DNA from: a virus
IMG/VR virus record: IMGVR_UViG_3300042549_007519
Span: 6,174-70,173 of that record
DNA length: 64,000 nucleotides
Strand: one strand, 5' to 3'
Part shown: positions 6,638-62,747 of the stretch, piece by piece
How positions within the stretch are numbered: position 1 is the first letter of the stretch
Layout of the letters: the number at the start of each line of letters is the position of its first letter
Notes under the pieces: generated by a model
Seen by the model: the letters and a program-made list of their open reading frames with translations, nothing else
Database searches by the model: none
Told to the model about the DNA's origin: nothing
Program-made: the position numbers and the translations under genes

Positions 6638-7191
6638 TTTTTTTATAAAATTTGATATACGCCACAAATATCAAAGTGGCTTGTTATTGTTGTTGCACCT
6701 ACTGGCGTATTAAATTTCCAATTCAAATCAGTTGTACTTCCAGAATAATATAATTTGTGTATTGTTGAACTAATTGACAAATCTGTAATGCCTGCAATGT
6801 GATATAACGAATTACCAGTTGTTTGGTGTAGTGTTCCATTTGCTTGTCGCATTGTTTCTACGCTTGCAAAAGGTAATGTTATTTGATATTGACCAGTACC
6901 AAAATTAGTACAGTCAGCAAAATCAACATAAACTCTAAAAAAACAAATGTTTGGAGCTATCATAGTATAAGAGCCTGTTGCTGTTACACCATCCAATGTT
7001 CCAGAAGCATCTGTAAACAAAGGATTAAATGATTGTGATGAAGGATTTACATAATCGCTTAAATCTTGCACATTTCCCCTAACATCTTTAACCTTAATTG
7101 TATTGTCATCTCCATCTACAAAAATAGCCAAACTATTCCCATCTGGAGATTTTATATTGTTTGCACTTGATTTTGTTACATTTCCCATTTT
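6500..7191. repeat. ~140-bp near-identical direct repeat (6500-6640 / 7051-7191)
   Basis: encodes the shared MGNVTKSSANNIKSPDGNSLAIFVDGDD...DLSDY. Confidence 0.9.
6643..7188 (-). CDS. putative spike/receptor-binding protein
   Basis: same 47-aa N-terminus; head with GSYTMI..FRVYVDF..GTGQYQITLPF, typical of fibre tips. Confidence 0.6.
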   Translation of the reverse strand: MGNVTKSSANNIKSPDGNSLAIFVDGDDNTIKVKDVRGNVQDLSDYVNPSSQSFNPLFTDASGTLDGVTATGSYTMIAPNICFFRVYVDFADCTNFGTGQYQITLPFASVETMRQANGTLHQTTGNSLYHIAGITDLSISSTIHKLYYSGSTTDLNWKFNTPVGATTITSHFDICGVYQIL

Positions 7192-12419: not shown

Positions 12420-12935
12420 TTAACATGGTGCTTTTATACACATAATTTGACCGAATGATTTTACTGGTTCATTAAAAATAGTACCATTTACCATTTTAGT
12501 TTTAAATCCTTTTATCTCATTTGTTATACTTGGATTTTTTGCTAAAAATAAAGAACTTTCATCTGTCAATTTAATGTCATTTGAATCTGTTTGTTGCGAC
12601 ATTACCAATAAGTAAATATTTATAATTGAATTTGTATCATTATCGCTTTTTGAATATTTTTTAACTAATTGTTCTAAAGAAACATACATATTGCCATAAT
12701 TCAATTTTGGTTCAAAAAACTCTTTCATATCATGATGTTGATATTTTGGATTTTTACCATCTTGATATTTTTCATTTAAGTAAGAAACTATTTTTTTTGC
12801 TCCATCTGAAATTAAATTAGTTTTTGGTGTATCTGTAATTATATTTGTATCAGATTTTTTATTCTTATTCCAAAAGTAAAGTCCTGCAATAGCACCTACT
12901 CCCAATAGTCCGTATAATATGTTTTTGTTTTTCAT
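12420..12935 (-). CDS. membrane protein, N-terminal TM, C-terminal CIKAPC
   Basis: first 27 aa identical to 12954..13283. Confidence 0.7.
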   Translation of the reverse strand: MKNKNILYGLLGVGAIAGLYFWNKNKKSDTNIITDTPKTNLISDGAKKIVSYLNEKYQDGKNPKYQHHDMKEFFEPKLNYGNMYVSLEQLVKKYSKSDNDTNSIINIYLLVMSQQTDSNDIKLTDESSLFLAKNPSITNEIKGFKTKMVNGTIFNEPVKSFGQIMCIKAPC

Positions 12936-13292
12936 AGTTATTTTTATTTTAAATTATGCTGGAGGGTACATTCCATAATCTACTTTAGGTCTTGCATTTA
13001 ACCAAATAGAAAATTCATTTTCTAATTTAAACTCTTTAATTTTTGCATTTGCCAAAGCTTTTTCTTTTTCATTATTTTTTTCCCATTCTCGAGGTGGTGC
13101 AACCCCACCTTTCCAACTATTAATTGCTTTATTAAATAAACTTATTTTTTCTTGCTCACTAATAATTGACACTTTTTGTTCTTGCGAGGTTAAATCTTTT
13201 GGTTTTTTATTCTTATTCCAAAAGTAAAGTCCTGCAATAGCACCTACTCCCAATAGTCCGTATAATATGTTTTTGTTTTTCATAGTTATTTT
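12855..13292. repeat. 90-bp identical direct repeat (12855-12944 / 13203-13292)
   Basis: covers the start region and TM anchor of two adjacent genes. Confidence 0.9.
12954..13283 (-). CDS. membrane protein, N-terminal TM
   Basis: MKNKNILYGLLGVGAIAGLYFWNKNKK. Confidence 0.7.
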   Translation of the reverse strand: MKNKNILYGLLGVGAIAGLYFWNKNKKPKDLTSQEQKVSIISEQEKISLFNKAINSWKGGVAPPREWEKNNEKEKALANAKIKEFKLENEFSIWLNARPKVDYGMYPPA

Positions 13293-15230: not shown

Positions 15231-15551
15231 TTATGCTTTTTTAGGTCTTACCGAAGTTATGCAAGCATCTCCATCTGCACAACCACCAAATTTAGCAAAA
15301 TAAGTTGTTCCGTTTGGTCTTTCACATACTTTACAACCTAAACCATAAGCACCTCCATTTGCATTTGAGTAACCACTCATTTTTGAATAACCACTCATTG
15401 CTGAATAACTATCACTCATTGGAGTTCCTTCTGGCTTTACCGCACTTGAACAAGTTGAACAAGTTGATTTTTTCTTCATTTTATCCCAATAGTAATACAA
15501 AGCAATAGCTCCAACAGCTAATAATCCGTACATTAATTTTTTATTTTTCAT
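15231..15551 (-). CDS. Cys-rich membrane protein, N-terminal TM, YSxMSG repeats
   Basis: CSTC, CKVC..C..C; YSAMSG-YSKMSG-YSNANG. Confidence 0.7.
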   Translation of the reverse strand: MKNKKLMYGLLAVGAIALYYYWDKMKKKSTCSTCSSAVKPEGTPMSDSYSAMSGYSKMSGYSNANGGAYGLGCKVCERPNGTTYFAKFGGCADGDACITSVRPKKA

Positions 15552-15561
15552 AATACTTTTT

Positions 15562-23451: not shown

Positions 23452-23790
23452 TTATATTTTTGGACTTAATAACATTTTTTTATTAACTCTTTTTTCTATA
23501 TATTGCATTACATCATCATAAGTTGTTTCAGACAAATCTATCAAAGGAGAAAAACAATTTGAATTATAAAAAATATATTTTTTTGCTATTGTTTTTTTAC
23601 CACAATATCTACAAGTAATAAAACCATTATATTTTTTAAAATCATAAGAAATACCTATATCTATTGTTAATTCACTACCAATACAACAACCTGTGTTAAT
23701 CTCTTTAATAAAAAATTCATCTCCCTTTTTAAAATCTAATTGAGAGTGATTTTTAATAGCAACAATTTTTTGCCCTACAAAAAAATCCAT
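23452..23790 (-). CDS. hypothetical protein with CxxC
   Basis: FFVGQKIVAIKNH; CC..CRYCG. Confidence 0.6.
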   Translation of the reverse strand: MDFFVGQKIVAIKNHSQLDFKKGDEFFIKEINTGCCIGSELTIDIGISYDFKKYNGFITCRYCGKKTIAKKYIFYNSNCFSPLIDLSETTYDDVMQYIEKRVNKKMLLSPKI

Positions 23791-23795
23791 AATAA

Positions 23796-23820
23796 TTTTA
23801 GCACTTGCCCTTGCAATCGG
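23796..23820 (-). promoter_or_regulatory. conserved leader motif CCRATTGCAAGGnnAAGTGCTAAAA, copy 1
   Basis: three copies, each exactly 10 nt before an ATG. Confidence 0.7.
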
Positions 23821-23888
23821 TTTTAAAGTTCAAAGCAAATGTAATAATGTTTTTTGGTTTTATAAAATTATTTTACCATTTTTTAACA

Positions 23889-41064: not shown

Positions 41065-41691
41065 TTACCCTATTAAAAATTTTAAATAATCTGGAGTACC
41101 ACTTTCTGTAATACCGCCTTTATTGTATCTTATATCGTTATTGTCTTTGTCAAAAGTTGTGTTCGTTCCATCTCCCAACTTAATTTGTTCTGAATAATAT
41201 GCCACAATTTCTTCCGCCCTATCAACTCCTTGTTCAAAATTAAAATCCTTTTCCCAATTAGGATAAACAACTACCCCATCATAACCTTCGTCTTTTAAAT
41301 CATCTGATTTTAATTCATAATTTCTGTATGAAGATTCTTTAAAATAAGGATTTTTTATATTTAAAAAACAATTATATTCAAATTCTCCATACCTATCTTG
41401 ACCTACATTTGGCGTAAAATAAAATCCTTTTCCATAAAAACCACCATCTGTCGTACTTCCGATTCTATATTCGTCAAATTCAAAAAATTCATTTGGACTA
41501 TTATGCACACAAATTAATGGCTCTCCATTTTCATCAATTATTTTTGAAACTCCATAGTAATCTTTAGTTTTATATGCTTCTTCCCAATCGCCAAACCATT
41601 GTTTAAACTCTTTTGTTCTTACAAGATTATATATTTCAGTAAAATATAAACCACTTGGCTTACCATTTGGTGCTAATAATTCTTTTTTCAT
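41065..41691 (-). CDS. ADP-ribosyltransferase-like (polyvalent-protein ART type)
   Basis: VRTKEFKQWFGDW..DENGEPL..H..GKGFYFT..GYDGV..EIVAY..QIK. Confidence 0.7.
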   Translation of the reverse strand: MKKELLAPNGKPSGLYFTEIYNLVRTKEFKQWFGDWEEAYKTKDYYGVSKIIDENGEPLICVHNSPNEFFEFDEYRIGSTTDGGFYGKGFYFTPNVGQDRYGEFEYNCFLNIKNPYFKESSYRNYELKSDDLKDEGYDGVVVYPNWEKDFNFEQGVDRAEEIVAYYSEQIKLGDGTNTTFDKDNNDIRYNKGGITESGTPDYLKFLIG

Positions 41692-41692
41692 T

Positions 41693-42262
41693 TTACCCTA
41701 TTAAAAATTTTAAATAGTCTGGAGTACCACTTTCTGTAATACCGCCTTTATTATATCTTATATCGTTACTTTTTGAATCAAATGTAGTGTTAGTGCCATC
41801 GGCAAGTTTTATTTGGTTAGAATTATATATATTAATATTAAATTTAGGAGCTAATTTATTTTTATATTTACCTGACCAATCAACATTATAAACATACGAA
41901 TCATATCCCAAATCATCATAATCATCACGATTTTCTGAATCAAATGTAATATTAAAAGATTTTATAAAATATTCTTTTGATTTTCCATAACTTCCTGCCA
42001 ATTCTTTTTGGTTTGTAAACCAATGACCAACTCTTACTGATTTATCATTTGGAAAACGTTCTTTAAATATGTTGAATTTTTTATCAGTTCCATGATAAAC
42101 TACAAGTGGCTCTCCATTTTCATCAATAACCTTACTGGCATTTTCTGGGTCGTTTTCCCAATCCCCAAACCATTTTTTAAATTCTGGTGTGCGGACTAAT
42201 TTATATTGTTCAGCAGTCAAATTGCTCGGTTTACCATTTGGTGCTAATAATTCTTTTTTCAT
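41693..42262 (-). CDS. ADP-ribosyltransferase-like (polyvalent-protein ART type), tandem paralog
   Basis: VRTPEFKKWFGDW..DENGEPLVVYHGT..WFT..NQIKLADGTNTTF. Confidence 0.7.
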   Translation of the reverse strand: MKKELLAPNGKPSNLTAEQYKLVRTPEFKKWFGDWENDPENASKVIDENGEPLVVYHGTDKKFNIFKERFPNDKSVRVGHWFTNQKELAGSYGKSKEYFIKSFNITFDSENRDDYDDLGYDSYVYNVDWSGKYKNKLAPKFNINIYNSNQIKLADGTNTTFDSKSNDIRYNKGGITESGTPDYLKFLIG

Positions 42263-42418
42263 GAAACATCAATATTTTTTTCAAATGTATAAAATTCTAT
42301 TGTAATCTAAAAATCATATTATTTATAATATGCAACATAATTTATTCAAATGTAGGCATTTAATATTTTTTTACTACATTTGTTTCTAATAAATTTATTA
42401 ACTTAAAAAATTTTAATC

Positions 42419-42535
42419 ATGGGTGCAGGATTTTTCGACATCAAAAGTGCTAATTATTTAGGTGGAGTAAATTTGCATAACACAGTTACGATTGCGTTAT
42501 TAGCATTTTTAGTTTACAAAACAGTTAAGAAGTAA
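42419..42535 (+). CDS. 38-aa membrane peptide in a stand-alone plus-strand unit
   Basis: MGAGFFDIKSANYLGGVNLHNTVTIALLAFLVYKTVKK; TACATTTG at 42375-42382; terminator downstream. Confidence 0.7.
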   Translation: MGAGFFDIKSANYLGGVNLHNTVTIALLAFLVYKTVKK

Positions 42536-42550
42536 TTTCTTTACTTTAGC

Positions 42551-42584
42551 AAAAAAAAATCCCACCTAATTGGTGGGTTTTTTA
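42551..42584. terminator. bidirectional intrinsic terminator
   Basis: A-tract, CCCACC-taatt-GGTGGG, T-tract. Confidence 0.8.
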
Positions 42585-43091
42585 TTAAATATGAGTCCAA
42601 TTTATTTTTTCTATAATTCTTAATATTGTAATTCTGCTTACTCCATACTTTTTTGATAAAGACATTTTGGTTTCAGAAAAACCTATTTTTCTTATTTCTA
42701 AAACTTGTTCTTCAGTAAGTTTGCATTTATGATGCTTAATTCCTTTTTGGTCTTTTAATCCAATTTCAATAGCGTGTTTCATATTTTCTTCATTAGTACA
42801 CCATTCTAAATTTTCAACTCTATTGTCAATTTTAATTCCGTTTATATGGTTAACTGTTTTTTTATTCAAAGGATTATCAATAAAAGCCAAAGCAACTAAT
42901 CTATGTTCAGTAAAATAATTATTATTACCATTTTTAGACAAAACTCTTTTTACATACCCATACCTATCAATACTTCTACCAATTAACCTTTCTTCAAAAA
43001 CTCTTTCGCTAACTAAACGTTTAACATTACCTAAATTTGACACTTTATATAATCCTTCAAAACCAACTATGTCTTTCCAAATTTCTTCCAT
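42585..43091 (-). CDS. NUMOD4-HNH homing endonuclease
   Basis: EIWKDIVGFEGLYKVSNLGNVK; HRLVALAF..VNHINGIKIDNRVENLEW. Confidence 0.95.
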   Translation of the reverse strand: MEEIWKDIVGFEGLYKVSNLGNVKRLVSERVFEERLIGRSIDRYGYVKRVLSKNGNNNYFTEHRLVALAFIDNPLNKKTVNHINGIKIDNRVENLEWCTNEENMKHAIEIGLKDQKGIKHHKCKLTEEQVLEIRKIGFSETKMSLSKKYGVSRITILRIIEKINWTHI

Positions 43092-43110
43092 AATTTTATA
43101 AAAAAGTAAA

Positions 43111-43194
43111 GCTCCTACAAATCCAAACGCACTCGACCTCGTTCTTCATTGTAAGAGCCAATATTTTTAAGTTACAAATTGTCGAGTGGTAACT
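43111..43194 (-). ncRNA. structured 5' leader (kissing-loop) of the HNH gene
   Basis: two hairpins whose loops carry complementary CACTCGAC and GTCGAGTG; TATATTTG at 43208-43201. Confidence 0.6.
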
Positions 43195-43219
43195 ACTTGA
43201 CAAATATAATAAAAATTTT

Positions 43220-43480
43220 TTATCTCCAAGTAATATATTTAACTAAAGCCATTTGAGCATCAACAATTTTATTGAAAGCGTTTGTTCTAAAAACATTTGC
43301 TTCCCAACTTTGCGTTACTTTACCATAATCGCTTTTTTCTAACTCTGCTTGTTGTAGCAAATCTAAAGCATCAGCCATTAGTTGTTTAGCTTTGTTTACT
43401 TTGTCATCTCCAGAGGGATTAAATGTTAATCCTACTGCTTTTTCCCCGAATGTCATTTCTCTTTGTACTTGATTTTCCAT
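43220..43480 (-). CDS. conserved small phage protein (possibly Acb2/Tad-like nucleotide-sponge family)
   Basis: TFGEKAVGLTFNPSGDDKV..K..A..AQMALVK.ITW; family assignment tentative. Confidence 0.5.
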   Translation of the reverse strand: MENQVQREMTFGEKAVGLTFNPSGDDKVNKAKQLMADALDLLQQAELEKSDYGKVTQSWEANVFRTNAFNKIVDAQMALVKYITWR

Positions 43481-43485
43481 ATTAT

Positions 43486-43510
43486 TTTTAGCACTTAACC
43501 TTGCAATCGG
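43486..43510 (-). promoter_or_regulatory. conserved leader motif, copy 2
   Basis: CCGATTGCAAGGTTAAGTGCTAAAA, 10 nt before ATG 43480. Confidence 0.7.
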
Positions 43511-43528
43511 TTTCTTGGTTATTTTTTA

Positions 43529-47297: not shown

Positions 47298-47344
47298 TTT
47301 TAAAGTTCAAGTCAAAAGTATAAAATATTATTTTAAATAACAAA
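47298..47344 (-). promoter_or_regulatory. repeated phage promoter
   Basis: 36 bp identical to 58492-58527; TTTG..TACTTTTG..GAACTTTAAAA. Confidence 0.75.
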
Positions 47345-47398
47345 TATTATTTAAAATGTTTTTTATTATATTAGATAAGTTTTATTTAATATAATATT

Positions 47399-53963: not shown

Positions 53964-54030
53964 AATTTAGTTATTTTATTTAATAATAATTTTTATCAAA
54001 AATATACTTTATTATTTTAAATACAAAATA

Positions 54031-54990
54031 TTATTTAAGAGATTTTAAAGTATTTTCAATAGCTTTTCTTAATGGGTCTGGAATGATAAATTTTAAGCAA
54101 GTTTCAAGGGTTGCTTTCATCTCGTTATTCTGTTGCTTTAATAGTTCTATTTCAGATAACTGTTTTTTGTGGTTGTCAGAAATAGTTTGAAATACAATAG
54201 TTTTTTTATTAACCTTTTCTACTTGTTTTTCAGCTTTAACAACTTGTTTTTGCAACTCGGCATTTTGCTTTGCCAATAATTCCTTTTGCTCATCATCTTG
54301 TTTTTTTCGGTCAACTAACCTATTGAATATTTCTTGGAATTGTTCTTCAGTAGTATCTGCATATAAAACATCATCTTCGTTTACAATAAAAAAAGAATAG
54401 GGTGCTAATTTCATTCTTCTTTCTGAATATAACTTGGCTCTTTTTTCTGTTTCCTCTTGCTCTAATCTTATTTGCTCTTGCTCTTTTTGATATTTTTCAA
54501 ATGAAAATTTAGCTCCATTCAAAATAGTTGTAAAAGCAACTTCGGACATAGTACTTAAATCAAAAGCATCTAAATCTAAAACTTGTAAATATGGTTTTAG
54601 TAATTCTAATCGGTCTGCTTTAAGTTTTGCTTTTCTTAATTGCTCTTTGGTTTCCACATATTTTTCTTGAATAGCTAAATGCTCCTCTGCTGGTTCTATA
54701 ATCATAAATAATCTTTTGGCAAGGCTATCTATAAACCTACCTTCTAACAAAGATTGCTCTTTTAGGCGTTTGCGTGTTTTTTCAATTTCAACTCTCTTTG
54801 CTTTAAGAAGTAATCTACCTTCTTTAGCTTGTTGCATTAACTCAACTTGGCTTTCATCGGTAACTTCTATTTCGTATGCTTTTTTGTTCCATTCGTTAGC
54901 AATATCTTCATATTCTTTGAATTTGCTATCTATTGATAATACTACCTCTCTTGGTAATCCGTTTTCCATTAGTTCTTGTTCTTGGTTCAT
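54031..54990 (-). CDS. long coiled-coil phage protein
   Basis: RVEIEKTRKRLKEQSL..GRFID..IEPAEEHL. Confidence 0.65.
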   Translation of the reverse strand: MNQEQELMENGLPREVVLSIDSKFKEYEDIANEWNKKAYEIEVTDESQVELMQQAKEGRLLLKAKRVEIEKTRKRLKEQSLLEGRFIDSLAKRLFMIIEPAEEHLAIQEKYVETKEQLRKAKLKADRLELLKPYLQVLDLDAFDLSTMSEVAFTTILNGAKFSFEKYQKEQEQIRLEQEETEKRAKLYSERRMKLAPYSFFIVNEDDVLYADTTEEQFQEIFNRLVDRKKQDDEQKELLAKQNAELQKQVVKAEKQVEKVNKKTIVFQTISDNHKKQLSEIELLKQQNNEMKATLETCLKFIIPDPLRKAIENTLKSLK

Positions 54991-58491: not shown

Positions 58492-58537
58492 TTTTAAAGT
58501 TCAAGTCAAAAGTATAAAATATTATTTATAATACAAA
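58492..58537 (-). promoter_or_regulatory. repeated phage promoter
   Basis: 36 bp identical to 47298-47333. Confidence 0.75.
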
Positions 58538-58559
58538 ATATTATATTAAATAATTTATA

Positions 58560-58940
58560 TTATTTGTAAAATTCTATCAACCAACCTTGAGCAATTATAA
58601 TTCTTAACATTTCAGATTCGTCAAATAATTGAATTAAAACTTCATCTCCAGAAGAAACATCTATTGCTTTAATTAATTGTGTCTTATCTCCATCAGTTGT
58701 TTCAACTTTTTCAACATTACCATAAGGCTTGTATTTAATTGTTTTACCATCTTGGTAATACAAACATATATATCCAGTATTCTTTTCATTAAAAACAACC
58801 AATAGGTCTGTTCTTTGTAATTCCATAATAACACCATCTTCTTTTGTGTTATATGACTTATATGTTTTTGTGAAAGTTTCTTTTTGTGCATAGTTTGTAA
58901 ACGATACAAACAATAACGCAATTAATAATAGTTTTTTCAT
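58560..58940 (-). CDS. secreted/periplasmic protein
   Basis: MKKLLLIALLFVSFTNYA-Q Bacteroidota-type signal peptide. Confidence 0.7.
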   Translation of the reverse strand: MKKLLLIALLFVSFTNYAQKETFTKTYKSYNTKEDGVIMELQRTDLLVVFNEKNTGYICLYYQDGKTIKYKPYGNVEKVETTDGDKTQLIKAIDVSSGDEVLIQLFDESEMLRIIIAQGWLIEFYK

Positions 58941-59145: not shown

Positions 59146-59550
59146 TTAAATGTCTTTTAAATATTGTTCGTGTTCTTCTTTTGAATTAACTTCATCAGGC
59201 AATAAATCCCTTGTAAGTTCTGAAGCCATTTCAGCAAATAATATAGTTAAATGACTTTCAAAAAATAAACCCAAACATGTTACAGATTCGTCTTCTTCAC
59301 TATCTTCAACAGGAGTAATTCTGAAAACACAGTATCTTCCTCTATTTTTATAAGGATAACTATCTTCATCTTGTTTTGTAATTAAGATACATCCATCCTC
59401 ACCTAAATTATCCCATTCTTTTTTATTCATAAAAGCAGGGTTATCTTGTGTAGGAATTTCATTGAATGTTTTATCAATGAAATTTACAATTTGTAATTTT
59501 CTCATTTCTTTTTCAATTACATCGTGTAATTTTTCTTTTGTTGCACTCAT
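59146..59550 (-). CDS. hypothetical protein
   Basis: preceded by leader motif copy 3. Confidence 0.6.
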   Translation of the reverse strand: MSATKEKLHDVIEKEMRKLQIVNFIDKTFNEIPTQDNPAFMNKKEWDNLGEDGCILITKQDEDSYPYKNRGRYCVFRITPVEDSEEDESVTCLGLFFESHLTILFAEMASELTRDLLPDEVNSKEEHEQYLKDI

Positions 59551-59555
59551 AATAT

Positions 59556-59580
59556 TTTTAGCACTTATCCTTGCAATTGG
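59556..59580 (-). promoter_or_regulatory. conserved leader motif, copy 3
   Basis: CCAATTGCAAGGATAAGTGCTAAAA, 10 nt before ATG 59550. Confidence 0.7.
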
Positions 59581-59583
59581 TAT

Positions 59584-59829
59584 TTATATTTTTTTAAAAA
59601 TTTCGTTGTAGTATTGTTCATTACTCCCATCTATATAACATTTAGGAGTTTCGCCATATTCTGCATAAGTAGAATCGTGACCATCTTGTCTTGCATCAAT
59701 TATCTGATTTTTTTCCATTTCTTTGGCTTGATTATATAATTCATTTGCTTGAACAGAATTAAAAGCATAACCATCCATTAATAAATTATCCATTTGTTCT
59801 TCTAACCATTCTACTGCTGTTTGTTTCAT
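59584..59829 (-). CDS. MKQTAVEWL-family small protein
   Basis: MKQTAVEWL..AKEMEK.QII.A..EQYYNE.F. Confidence 0.7.
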   Translation of the reverse strand: MKQTAVEWLEEQMDNLLMDGYAFNSVQANELYNQAKEMEKNQIIDARQDGHDSTYAEYGETPKCYIDGSNEQYYNEIFKKI

Positions 59830-62131: not shown

Positions 62132-62146
62132 TTTTTTATAAAGATT

Positions 62147-62190
62147 AAAAGTTCATAGCAAAAATATAAAATATTATTTAAAATACAAAT
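62147..62190 (-). promoter_or_regulatory. repeated phage promoter driving the first early operon
   Basis: TTTG..AAATAATATTTTATATTTTTG..GAACTTTT. Confidence 0.65.
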
Positions 62191-62747
62191 TATTATAAAA
62201 AATATACTATTCTTTTTATTTATAACTTTACTTTATTTTGATAAGAAATATTTATAGTTTGTATTTTTTATCATTTTTTTTTATTTTTTAATCATTGATG
62301 ATAAAGCATATAAAAAACCTTGCGAACACCAATAAAATCAATACTTAACAAAGATTGAAATTACTCAAGAAAACGTGTTTTTTTTGAAAAAAATGTTCAA
62401 AAATGAACGTTTTTTGAACGTTTTTGACACTTTTTTGATTTTTTTTGCTGTTTTTAGCGTTTTTTACGTTTTCATCTAAAACGTTTTTTAATCTTTGTTA
62501 GCACCAATAAAATAAGGCTCTAACAAAGATTGTTGTATTCGATGATTTAAAAAATTTTTTTTTGATTTTTTTGGAGCAAAAGCTTGTTTTCTGCATAAAT
62601 AATTTATCGTTTATCAATAAATTTTCACATTTTTTCTTATAATTCAACAAAACCACTAATTTTTCCCACCCCAGTTCCAAATCAGTCCCAAAAAAGTCCC
62701 AAAAGTTTCCCAAATAAATAGGTTATTTGTTTGATAATGAGTTTAAG

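What the first reader, a model, noticed from the sequence alone, without database searches (positions are those of the whole stretch)
43111..43208. Kissing-loop RNA leader on the HNH homing endonuclease gene
Seen on the minus transcript, just after TATATTTG: hairpin 1 AGUUAC-[CACUCGAC AAUUU]-GUAACU, and hairpin 2 GCUCUUACAA...UUGUAGGAGC enclosing AACG-[AG GUCGAGUG]-CGUU. The two loops are perfect 8-bp complements, and hairpin 2 is followed by a U-rich tract about 20 nt before the ATG. Inference: a structured cis-regulator or attenuator restraining the nuclease, or an RNA component travelling with the mobile HNH unit.
Basis: partly seen in the sequence, partly recalled or inferred. Interest (0 to 1): 0.7.

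Follow-up and report, generated by a model that had tools for sequence, protein, structure and literature searches.

The report
Kissing-hairpin leader RNA on mobile nuclease gene
A phage homing-nuclease gene carries its own roughly 100-base leader RNA made of two hairpins whose loops pair with each other; this pairing is kept in relatives with different loop sequences, and the second hairpin looks like a built-in transcription stop that probably keeps the nuclease at a low level.

Summary
On the minus strand a Bacteroidota-type -7 box (43208-43201) is followed by hairpin 1 (43194-43170) and a two-tier hairpin 2 (43158-43111). Their loops hold perfectly complementary 8-mers. A U-run (43110-43100) and the ATG (43091) of an I-HmuI-like NUMOD4-HNH gene follow. 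Seven close relatives keep every pair (244/244 cells). One relative has a compensatory G-C to U-A change in the loop-loop helix. A covariance model recovers three more distant leaders with unrelated loop sequences. Across these 11 leaders the loop-loop helix is 88/88 Watson-Crick, with double changes at 6 of 8 positions, and 15 of 22 stem pairs covary. In all, 19 of 118 distinct HNH upstream regions show this layout, with 12 different loop pairs. The leader begins at the promoter box, moves with the HNH gene, occurs once per genome, and is better conserved than the coding sequence. Rfam 15 has no match, and five searches found no description. Function is inferred, not shown. Hairpin 2 has the A-tract/stem/U-tract anatomy of an intrinsic terminator, so the best reading is a constitutive attenuator clamped by a kissing hairpin. 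It is a new RNA motif of a known general kind.

The parts
43201..43208 (-). Bacteroidota-type -7 promoter box TATATTTG (fits TAnnTTTG / TAHHTTTG); predicted transcript start at 43196
   Evidence: Sequence. The motif definition and the G at -5 rule come from passages of PMC6847099. The box is kept in all 8 close leaders. Other such boxes in the window sit 19-84 nt from their ATG (8 of 9 at 19-45), while this one sits 109 nt away. The transcript start is inferred, not mapped.
43170..43194 (-). Hairpin 1: 6-bp stem (43194-43189 / 43175-43170) with a 13-nt loop; the loop 8-mer at 43188-43181 directly follows the 5' stem strand and 5 unpaired nt follow it
   Evidence: The stem pairs in 8/8 close leaders. 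4 of 6 pairs change on both sides across 11 leaders.
43159..43169 (-). A-rich single-stranded linker (11 nt) that can pair with the U-run after hairpin 2
   Evidence: the constrained folds pair it with the U-run in the window's family and in L009, L042, L022, L211 and L209.
43111..43158 (-). Hairpin 2: outer stem of 10-12 bp, a 4x4 internal loop (43148-43145 / 43124-43121, tandem G-A potential), an inner 5-bp stem and a 10-nt loop; the 8-mer at 43137-43130 directly precedes the 3' stem strand
   Evidence: 100% of cells pair. 7 of 11 outer and 4 of 5 inner pairs change on both sides.
43130..43188 (-). Loop-loop (kissing) helix: 43188-43181 pairs with 43137-43130, 8 Watson-Crick pairs
   Evidence: There is a compensatory change in L001. 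88/88 cells are Watson-Crick with 4 sequence types, and 1 of 2000 partner shuffles reaches this. There are 12 distinct loop pairs in 19 leaders.
43100..43110 (-). U-rich run directly after the G+C-rich base of hairpin 2 (the tail of the terminator-like element)
   Evidence: A comparable run directly follows hairpin 2 in every listed class member, but the detector had asked for a T-run within 40 nt.
42585..43091 (-). NUMOD4-HNH_3 homing endonuclease gene, 168 aa, I-HmuI-like
   Evidence: ORF; PF07463 E 5.2e-12, PF13392 E 9.8e-9; PDB 1u3e, E 3.4e-12.
42561..42577 (-). Simple intrinsic terminator after the HNH gene (6-bp G+C-rich stem, then a T-run)
43195..43203 (-). Segment A: 9 nt overlapping the end of the -7 box that can pair with the loop-1 8-mer in an alternative 5' hairpin; it would exist only in transcripts coming from upstream
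   Evidence: The MFE fold uses it. 90.3% of 72 cells pair, with one double change, but 59 of 500 shuffles do as well. It is not seen by eye in L009 or L022. Its status is unresolved.

Best explanation
The stretch is the 5' leader RNA of a self-contained mobile cassette made of promoter, leader, HNH homing endonuclease gene and terminator. SHOWN BY COMPARISON: the RNA forms a hairpin 1 that would start 2 nt after the predicted transcript start and a long two-tier hairpin 2, and their loops pair in an 8-bp kissing helix. All three helices are maintained by compensatory change, and the leader moves with the gene. INFERRED: hairpin 2, preceded by an A-tract and followed at once by a U-run, acts as an intrinsic terminator placed between the cassette's own promoter and the start codon. 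Most transcripts would then stop as an RNA of about 95 nt, and only read-through would make nuclease mRNA. This would keep a DNA-cutting enzyme at a low, context-independent level. Because the loop-loop helix is perfectly Watson-Crick in every member, it is most likely a constitutive clamp. It would lock the large apical loop of the terminator hairpin to the 5' hairpin, making the fold fast, compact and indifferent to whatever sequence lies upstream after the cassette lands in a new site. It is unlikely to be a ligand-sensing switch. The unpaired nucleotides are placed as pseudoknot stereochemistry requires (2 nt on the 5' side of loop 2, 4-6 nt on the 3' side of loop 1). That would allow one coaxial stack of hairpin 1, the kissing helix and the inner stem of hairpin 2. 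The 11-nt linker is too short for a straight hairpin 2, so the conserved 4x4 internal loop probably acts as a bend.
For: Structure: 244/244 cells pair in 8 close leaders, and 7 pairs switch between Watson-Crick and G-U, which is meaningful only on the sense RNA strand. In 11 model-homologous leaders 98.8% of 240 cells pair, 15 of 22 pairs change on both sides, and 0 of 500 shuffles reach any measure. The loop-loop helix is 88/88 Watson-Crick, with 6 of 8 positions compensatory. The class comprises 19 of 118 distinct upstream regions with 12 loop pairs, against 1.0% of shuffles and 2.1% of natural controls. One of the natural-control hits is a second HNH gene. Loops defined by plain MFE folding give a complement of at least 7 nt in 4 of 42 regions, against 0.35% of 861 non-cognate combinations. 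Selection: the leader core is 86-98% identical against 73-86% for the ORF in 7 of 7 relatives. A relative's contig has 0 differences in 43106-43205 and 24 in 43206-43400. Cassette: homology starts at the promoter box with different upstream neighbours. There is one copy per genome. An HNH gene is present in only 5 of 18 related loci. In L201 a terminator-like hairpin with a T-run lies about 27 nt upstream of the box (seen by eye), so that cassette must use its own promoter. Terminator reading: A-tract, stem with a G+C-rich base, then an immediate U-run, in the window and in all listed members. The leader is unusually long for this phage. Precedent: 5'-proximal intrinsic terminators in T4 mobE and segF, with about 30% termination reported for mobE (passages of PMC2988022). 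Perfect kissing loops usually form without cofactors, whereas a bulge makes them ligand-dependent (passages of PMC10907184). Long terminator stems resist antitermination (abstract of PMC10325885).
Against: No transcript ends, termination assay or expression data exist for this element, so the function rests on anatomy and analogy. The simple terminator scan did not call hairpin 2, because its loop limit of 3-8 nt excludes a 10-nt loop and a two-tier stem. Contigs from two RNA libraries (X1 record 7, X3 record 21) run from the leader into the ORF. If they are RNA, termination is at most partial; they may also be DNA carry-over. My detector demanded a T-run within 40 nt, so the universal U-run is partly built in, and the attempt to test it without that demand was confounded. 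Other NUMOD4-HNH genes manage without this leader: L348, L349 and L351, four named Bacteroidota phages and 45 of 48 genome-contig loci. It is therefore not required for carrying such a gene. What the kissing helix adds to termination is pure inference; it could as well weaken termination or serve RNA stability or translation.
Confidence: 0.5

Rival explanations
1. The short RNA is the product. Promoter, kissing-hairpin RNA and terminator would form a small-RNA gene of about 95 nt carried by the cassette. The RNA would act in trans or as a partner of the nuclease, and HNH mRNA would arise only as read-through.
For: A promoter followed by a compact structured RNA and a terminator-like end is the anatomy of an sRNA gene. 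The leader is more conserved than the protein-coding part in 7 of 7 relatives. L003 keeps an intact leader although its HNH gene is cut to 122 residues.
Against: The loops, the only long single-stranded candidates for target pairing, are complementary to each other and differ freely between relatives. This fits an internal structural role, not a conserved external target. The leader was never found apart from an HNH gene. The one extra copy of the 8-mer in the window lies in coding sequence and is compatible with chance.
Confidence: 0.15
2. It controls mRNA stability or translation, not transcription. The 5'-terminal hairpin and compact fold would protect the mRNA from 5'-end-dependent decay. 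[quoted passage not shown]
For: Hairpin 1 would start 2 nt after the predicted +1. The linker and U-run can pair, and this competes sterically with a stretched linker (inference). In Flavobacterium, initiation is tuned by structure near the start codon and by upstream adenines (abstract and passages of PMC6847099). The start codon has A at -3 and -6.
Against: The start codon and the 8 nt before it are outside every conserved helix, unlike the T4 hairpins that bury the ribosome site. A stem with a G+C-rich base followed at once by a U-run is the signature of termination and is not needed for stability or translation.
Confidence: 0.17
3. It is a conditional switch. The kissing helix, or the alternative 5' hairpin formed by segment A with loop 1, would change with temperature, with a protein such as the HNH enzyme itself, or with the promoter used. 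Expression would then differ between read-through and cassette-initiated transcripts, as for T4 I-TevI.
For: The MFE fold of the longer RNA uses segment A in place of hairpin 1. Segment A co-varies with loop 1 in L001, and 90.3% of cells pair. T4-type endonuclease genes use exactly such promoter-dependent alternative folds, and I-TevI represses its own promoter.
Against: Support for segment A is weak: 59 of 500 shuffles do as well, and one position is unpaired in 6 of 8 sequences. It is not visible in L009 or L022 (by eye). In L201 a terminator-like hairpin sits just upstream, so read-through transcripts should be rare there. The kissing helix has no bulge or mismatch in 88 cells, the opposite of ligand-dependent kissing loops. 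No aptamer-like family matches.
Confidence: 0.13
4. It is a DNA-level element. The two 8-mers would be an inverted repeat bound by a dimeric protein (an operator), or part of the nuclease's recognition or recombination site.
For: The 8-mers are a perfect inverted repeat with no G-U pairs in 88 cells, so they read the same on both strands. I-TevI binds an operator at its own promoter.
Against: Each 8-mer sits exactly in the loop of a hairpin whose stem covaries and uses G-U pairs, which have meaning only in sense-strand RNA. Twelve unrelated repeat sequences would need twelve co-evolved protein specificities. The placement of unpaired nucleotides follows RNA pseudoknot geometry (established knowledge, recalled).
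Confidence: 0.04
5. It is a chance inverted repeat in an AT-rich spacer with no function.
For: A loose detector finds such pairs in 37% of shuffled AT-rich sequences.
Against: all point the other way.
Confidence: 0.01

Closest known systems
5'-proximal intrinsic terminators and regulatory hairpins of T4-family free-standing homing endonuclease genes (mobE, segF, segB, I-TevI)
   Same: Both place a structured RNA or terminator at the front of a phage homing endonuclease gene and are thought to hold nuclease expression down. Both have their own promoter logic, and downstream phage genes have their own promoter (passages of PMC2988022; the window's downstream box at 42289).
   Different: The T4 terminators are simple hairpins inside the 5' coding region, and the T4 hairpins bury the ribosome site. 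Here the element is wholly in the untranslated leader, the start codon is free, and two hairpins are joined by a covarying 8-bp loop-loop helix, for which I found no report in this gene class.
Cobalamin riboswitch L5-L13 kissing loop
   Same: In both, a loop of an upstream element kisses the apical loop of the downstream regulatory hairpin of the same leader (passages of PMC10907184).
   Different: The riboswitch has a large ligand-binding aptamer, and its interloop helix carries a 1-2 nt bulge that makes it ligand-dependent. Here there is no aptamer (no Rfam match) and the helix is perfect in 88/88 cells.
int-alpA RNA (Rfam RF02996)
   Same: It is a structured leader found here directly upstream of other NUMOD4-HNH genes (L229 45.0 bits, L260 44.0 bits, gathering score 35.8). 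In Rfam's consensus it also ends in a stem followed by a U-run. The same gene family therefore carries at least two kinds of structured leader.
   Different: It has a different fold, a three-way junction closed by one long stem with no loop-loop pairing. The window's leader does not match it at E up to 10. Its function is not discussed in the main text of PMC5737381, and the supplements were closed.
Fully complementary kissing hairpins such as ColE1 RNA I / RNA II or TAR / TAR* (recalled, not from a call)
   Same: These are stable loop-loop helices of 6-7 Watson-Crick pairs stacked between two stems. Some class members (L211, L208, L216) have 6-8-nt loops that are almost entirely paired.
   Different: Those complexes form between two molecules, and in ColE1 between sense and antisense RNAs. 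Here both loops are in one RNA, 43 nt apart. Whether pairing occurs within or between molecules was not testable.

Membership tests
Kissing-loop (loop-loop) RNA tertiary interaction | Two separate hairpins whose terminal loops share about 5 or more contiguous Watson-Crick complementary bases | tested here: met
   8 complementary bases, each in the loop of its own stem.
Kissing-loop (loop-loop) RNA tertiary interaction | Complementarity maintained by compensatory change in relatives | tested here: met
   88/88 cells Watson-Crick, 4 types, 6 of 8 positions changed on both sides, 1 of 2000 partner shuffles. 12 loop pairs in 19 leaders.
Kissing-loop (loop-loop) RNA tertiary interaction | Physical formation of the loop-loop helix, within one molecule and not between two | not testable with these tools
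   This needs chemical probing, native gels or a solved structure. The steric argument from the numbers of unpaired nucleotides is inference.
Intrinsic (Rho-independent) terminator | Stem-loop with a G+C-rich base followed immediately by a U-run | tested here: met
   The stem base GCTC/GAGC is followed by an 11-nt run with 9 T. The same holds in the listed class members. The simple scanner did not call it because of its loop and stem rules.
Intrinsic (Rho-independent) terminator | A-tract upstream of the stem | tested here: met
   The linker holds five consecutive A and pairs with the U-run in the folds.
Intrinsic (Rho-independent) terminator | RNA 3' ends at the U-run, with termination in vitro or in vivo | not testable with these tools
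   Only assembled contigs of public runs were available, and these cannot show RNA ends.
T4-type translational hairpin control of homing endonuclease genes | [quoted passage not shown] | tested here: not met
   The ATG and the 8 nt before it lie outside all conserved helices.
T4-type translational hairpin control of homing endonuclease genes | A promoter inside the structure, so that long and short transcripts fold differently | tested here: inconclusive
   Segment A overlaps the box and can replace hairpin 1 in longer RNAs, but covariation support is weak.
Riboswitch with a kissing-loop expression platform | A conserved ligand-binding aptamer | tested here: not met
   No Rfam family matches the leader at E up to 10 in the window or at E up to 1 in 11 class loci. 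Hairpin 1 is a plain 4-7-bp hairpin.
int-alpA RNA (RF02996) | Score at or above Rfam's gathering score of 35.8 bits | tested here: not met
   No match on the window's leader. The family is found on other HNH leaders.
HNH-associated guide-type RNAs (HEARO / omega RNA of IsrB; name recalled) | Match to the Rfam model, with an IsrB-type protein next to it | tested here: not met
   No Rfam match. The protein is a 168-aa NUMOD4-HNH_3 enzyme related to I-HmuI.
I-HmuI-like HNH homing endonuclease (the gene served by the leader) | NUMOD4 and HNH_3 domains above Pfam cut-offs, and similarity to a solved homing endonuclease | tested here: met
   46.2 bits (cut-off 23.4) and 35.2 bits (cut-off 24.8). PDB 1u3e at E 3.4e-12. 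Sporadic presence among related phages.

The most novel reading that the evidence does not exclude
This is a previously undescribed family of cassette-borne RNAs in phages with Bacteroidota-type promoters. In this reading, a promoter-proximal small RNA of about 95 nt is locked into a rod-and-fold-back shape by an 8-bp intramolecular kissing helix. It travels with homing endonuclease genes and is itself the selected product. It could be a portable, context-proof clamped terminator module that lets a nuclease gene land anywhere without being over-expressed. It could instead be an RNA that works with or against the nuclease during homing. Either would be a new design principle for how selfish nuclease genes tame their own expression.
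Probability: 0.2. Interest if true: 0.8.

Novelty: new variant of a known kind. Interest (0 to 1): 0.62.

Why it matters
Homing endonuclease genes must be expressed enough to spread but not enough to harm the phage that carries them. The known solutions come almost entirely from T4-like phages of Proteobacteria. This element is a different solution, from phages that carry Bacteroidota-type promoters; hosts of that phylum lack Shine-Dalgarno sequences. It is a compact leader with a covarying intramolecular kissing helix joined to a terminator-like hairpin, carried inside the mobile unit. For RNA biology it is a clean, small, pseudoknotted motif with strong natural covariation that no curated family covers. 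It is well suited to testing how a loop-loop clamp affects terminator folding. For genome annotation it marks the 5' boundary of a class of mobile cassettes. As a part for synthetic biology, a context-independent attenuator for Bacteroidota would be useful. The finding also shows that NUMOD4-HNH genes carry at least two unrelated structured leaders (this one and int-alpA). That points to a general need for RNA-level control in this gene family.

Tried and rejected
A loose detector (any 7-mer) was useless: 64 of 118 real regions against 867 of 2360 shuffles. It was replaced by the strict one.

Defining loops by MFE alone leaves only 42 of 118 regions with two hairpin loops. It misses the window's own family because the MFE prefers the alternative 5' hairpin.

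The test of whether a T-run follows hairpin 2 without asking for it was confounded, because the fold absorbs the U-run into an A:U extension. The usable part is 38 of 118 real regions against 113 of 3540 shuffles without the T demand.

Rfam gave no match on the leader. The only nearby hits are weak leader-peptide models on the 3' terminator.

An exact search for the 8-mer pair in viral contigs returned 117 stretches, of which only 2 are homologous leaders. A degenerate pattern for hairpin 2 found only the 3 already known relatives.

Four named Bacteroidota phages have HNH homologues but no room for the leader. Genome and MAG contigs gave 3 of 48 detector hits, none convincing.

Public runs held only small shares, as assembled contigs. 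These show no RNA ends, no strand and no new loop variants. Parts of the stretch without cover mean nothing.

The glycosyltransferase as a single query found no relatives; an alignment did.

The second 8-nt detector hit in the window (6657-6710) lies inside a coding region.

A K-turn reading of the internal loop was rejected because the loop is symmetric 4x4 (sequence; K-turn rules recalled). No relation between linker length and hairpin-2 height was seen by eye.

One paper reading failed on a term with an apostrophe and was not repeated.

No complex or structure prediction was run, because no protein-RNA claim is made.

Full report
OBSERVATION. On the minus strand the spacer between an 86-aa ORF (43220-43480) and a 168-aa ORF (42585-43091) reads, in order:
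- TATATTTG (43208-43201);
- six bases;
- hairpin 1: AGTTAC / 13-nt loop / GTAACT (43194-43170);
- an 11-nt A-rich linker (43169-43159);
- hairpin 2 (43158-43111), built of a 10-bp outer stem, a 4x4 internal loop, a 5-bp inner stem and a 10-nt loop;
- a T-rich run (43110-43100);
- eight bases and the ATG.

The first eight bases of loop 1 (43188-43181) and the last eight of loop 2 (43137-43130) are exact reverse complements. The ORF is a NUMOD4-HNH_3 protein whose closest solved relative is the homing endonuclease I-HmuI (1u3e, E 3.4e-12).

IS IT MORE THAN CHANCE? Within the window the 8-mer occurs three times on either strand, against 0.11 expected. The third copy is in coding sequence. The fold is moderately better than shuffles (z = -2.35). 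These numbers alone would not carry the claim, because in AT-rich DNA a loose search for complementary loops succeeds in 37% of shuffles. The case rests on relatives.

RELATIVES. Searches with the HNH protein gave 80 viral loci, 80 metagenome loci and 51 genome-contig loci. Seven distinct relatives with 64-83% protein identity carry an alignable leader.
- In that alignment all 244 of 244 cells of the proposed structure form standard pairs, against at most 42% when partners are slid.
- Seven pairs alternate between Watson-Crick and G-U. These changes are neutral only in RNA of the sense strand.
- L001 has a G-C to U-A double change in the loop-loop helix.
- The set is too shallow for the shuffle control (71 of 500).

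I therefore built a covariance model. It recovered L042, L009 (E about 1e-6) and L022 (E 2e-4), whose loops share no sequence with the window's.
- Over these 11 leaders the nested helices pair in 98.8% of 240 cells.
- 15 of 22 pairs change on both sides.
- 0 of 500 shuffles reach any of the five measures. The caveat is that the alignment is fitted to the model.
- The loop-loop helix, counted in its own register, is Watson-Crick in 88 of 88 cells, with four sequence types and double changes at six of eight positions. Non-cognate partners give 3-7 pairs, and 1 of 2000 partner shuffles equals the observed value.

A WIDER CLASS. A strict detector asked for a 7-mer with at least 3 G/C, each copy in the loop of its own hairpin, and a T-run after the second hairpin.
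- It fires on 24 of 118 distinct HNH upstream regions.
- It fires on 59 of 5900 shuffles.
- It fires on 21 of 1024 upstream regions of other ORFs in the same loci.

One of those 21 is a second NUMOD4-HNH gene with an L025-type leader. After setting aside five hits of another or doubtful architecture (L035, L260, L075, L213, L228), 19 leaders with 12 different loop pairs remain. L208 and L216 show the same plan with 6-nt loops that differ from each other in a compensatory way (by eye). Loops defined by plain MFE folding, blind to loop-loop pairing, give a complement of at least 7 nt in 4 of 42 usable regions, against 0.35% of 861 non-cognate combinations.

THE LEADER BELONGS TO THE MOBILE UNIT.
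- Homology between the window and each close relative begins 1-24 nt upstream of the TATATTTG box, whereas the upstream neighbours differ. The 86-aa ORF is adjacent only in the window, lies 467 nt away in L003 and about 1300 nt away in L204, and is absent in L200.
- A relative's contig shows no difference across 43106-43205 and 24 differences across 43206-43400.
- The leader core is more conserved than the coding sequence in 7 of 7 relatives (86-98% against 73-86%).
- It is single-copy in the window's own 70-kb record and in four other records, always at the HNH gene.
- Among 18 related loci found through the neighbouring glycosyltransferase, only 5 hold an HNH gene. Three of those hold another HNH lineage that has no such leader.
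- Four named Bacteroidota phages with HNH homologues have no room for it.

PROMOTER AND 5' END. TATATTTG fits the Bacteroidota -7 element TAnnTTTG. In Flavobacterium johnsoniae the G lies at -5 (passages of PMC6847099). That puts the predicted start at 43196, two bases before hairpin 1. Similar boxes stand before other genes of the window at 19-84 nt from the ATG (8 of 9 at 19-45), whereas this one is 109 nt away. In L201 a terminator-like hairpin with a T-run lies about 27 nt upstream of the box (by eye), so that cassette must rely on its own promoter. The start site is inferred, not mapped.

WHAT IT PROBABLY DOES. Hairpin 2 has a G+C-rich base followed at once by a U-run and preceded by an A-tract that can pair with the U-run. 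This is the standard anatomy of an intrinsic terminator, placed here between a promoter and its only gene. The simple scanner missed it because it allows loops of 3-8 nt only. T4-family homing endonuclease genes are known to carry 5'-proximal terminators (mobE, segF), promoter-dependent hairpins and autorepression, all thought to limit nuclease expression (passages of PMC2988022).

I therefore read the leader as a constitutive attenuator. The kissing helix is perfect in every member. Perfect kissing loops generally form on their own, while a bulge makes them ligand-dependent (passages of PMC10907184). That favours a structural clamp over a sensor.

The unpaired bases are placed as pseudoknot geometry demands: two on the 5' side of loop 2 and four to six on the 3' side of loop 1 (rules recalled). 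This would allow a continuous stack of hairpin 1, the kissing helix and the inner stem. With a straight hairpin 2 the 11-nt linker could not span the distance, so the conserved symmetric internal loop with tandem G-A potential probably bends. These last steps are inference.

Contigs from two RNA libraries run from the leader into the ORF. That would fit partial termination, but it proves nothing because contigs show neither ends nor strand.

RIVALS. The short RNA could itself be the product. The fold could serve stability or translation. An alternative 5' hairpin (segment A with loop 1) could make read-through and cassette-initiated transcripts fold differently. The 8-mers could be a DNA operator. 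The evidence for and against each is set out under the rival explanations. None is excluded except chance.

KNOWN FAMILIES AND NOVELTY. No Rfam 15 family matches the leader in the window (E up to 10) or in 11 class loci (E up to 1). Full-text searches found no description. The main texts of two large motif surveys do not mention HNH; their supplements were closed. Other NUMOD4-HNH genes carry a different, known leader, int-alpA RNA. The element is thus a new RNA motif of a known general kind: a structured 5' leader of a homing endonuclease gene with a terminator-like hairpin. It is distinguished by a strongly covarying intramolecular kissing helix. Its structure is well supported, and its function is a reasoned guess that simple experiments can test.

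Noticed in passing
L229:2415-2481 (+), L260:2413-2480 (+); similar by eye in L035, L011-L013, L327: A different structured leader stands directly upstream of other NUMOD4-HNH genes. It is the Rfam family int-alpA RNA (45.0 and 44.0 bits, gathering score 35.8). This gene family therefore carries at least two unrelated leader RNAs.
   Followed up: partly
window 43478-43525, 23788-23835, 59548-59595 (minus-strand sense): A 48-nt element, 73-100% alike, is repeated three times and ends at the ATG of small minus-strand ORFs. One copy lies just upstream of the 86-aa ORF next to the finding. Several copies also occur in relatives (L201, L204, L002, L003). It looks like a shared promoter or leader module.
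   Followed up: partly
window about 42427-42543 (+): A small ORF of about 38 aa with a hydrophobic stretch lies on the opposite strand between the HNH terminator and the next genes. It converges on the same terminator, and the region is conserved together with the right flank of the cassette in L001, L002 and L201.
   Followed up: no
window 41065-41691 and 41693-42262 (-): Two tandem paralogous genes with the ART-PolyVal domain (ADP-ribosyltransferase of polyvalent proteins; E 6e-11 and 6e-15) lie just downstream of the cassette. Their first 148 nt are 85% alike. The downstream promoter-like box at 42289 is 19 nt from the first ATG.
   Followed up: no
window 47298-47369, 53982-54053, 58492-58563, 62144-62215: A four-copy family of 72-nt AT-rich intergenic repeats contains TAnnTTTG boxes in minus-strand sense, 22-33 nt from an ATG. 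It is probably a set of related promoters.
   Followed up: partly
L003:3001-3369: The HNH gene of this relative is cut to about 122 residues (the C-terminal third is replaced), yet its leader is intact and carries only pair-preserving changes.
   Followed up: partly
L229:4288-4342 (-): A match to RAGATH-31 RNA at 62 bits lies below its gathering score of 71.8, on a contig that also carries an int-alpA leader.
   Followed up: no
window 12855-12944 and 13203-13292: Two 90-nt copies, 100% identical and 348 nt apart, with a third copy at 71% (15471-15560). They cover the starts of small minus-strand ORFs.
   Followed up: no
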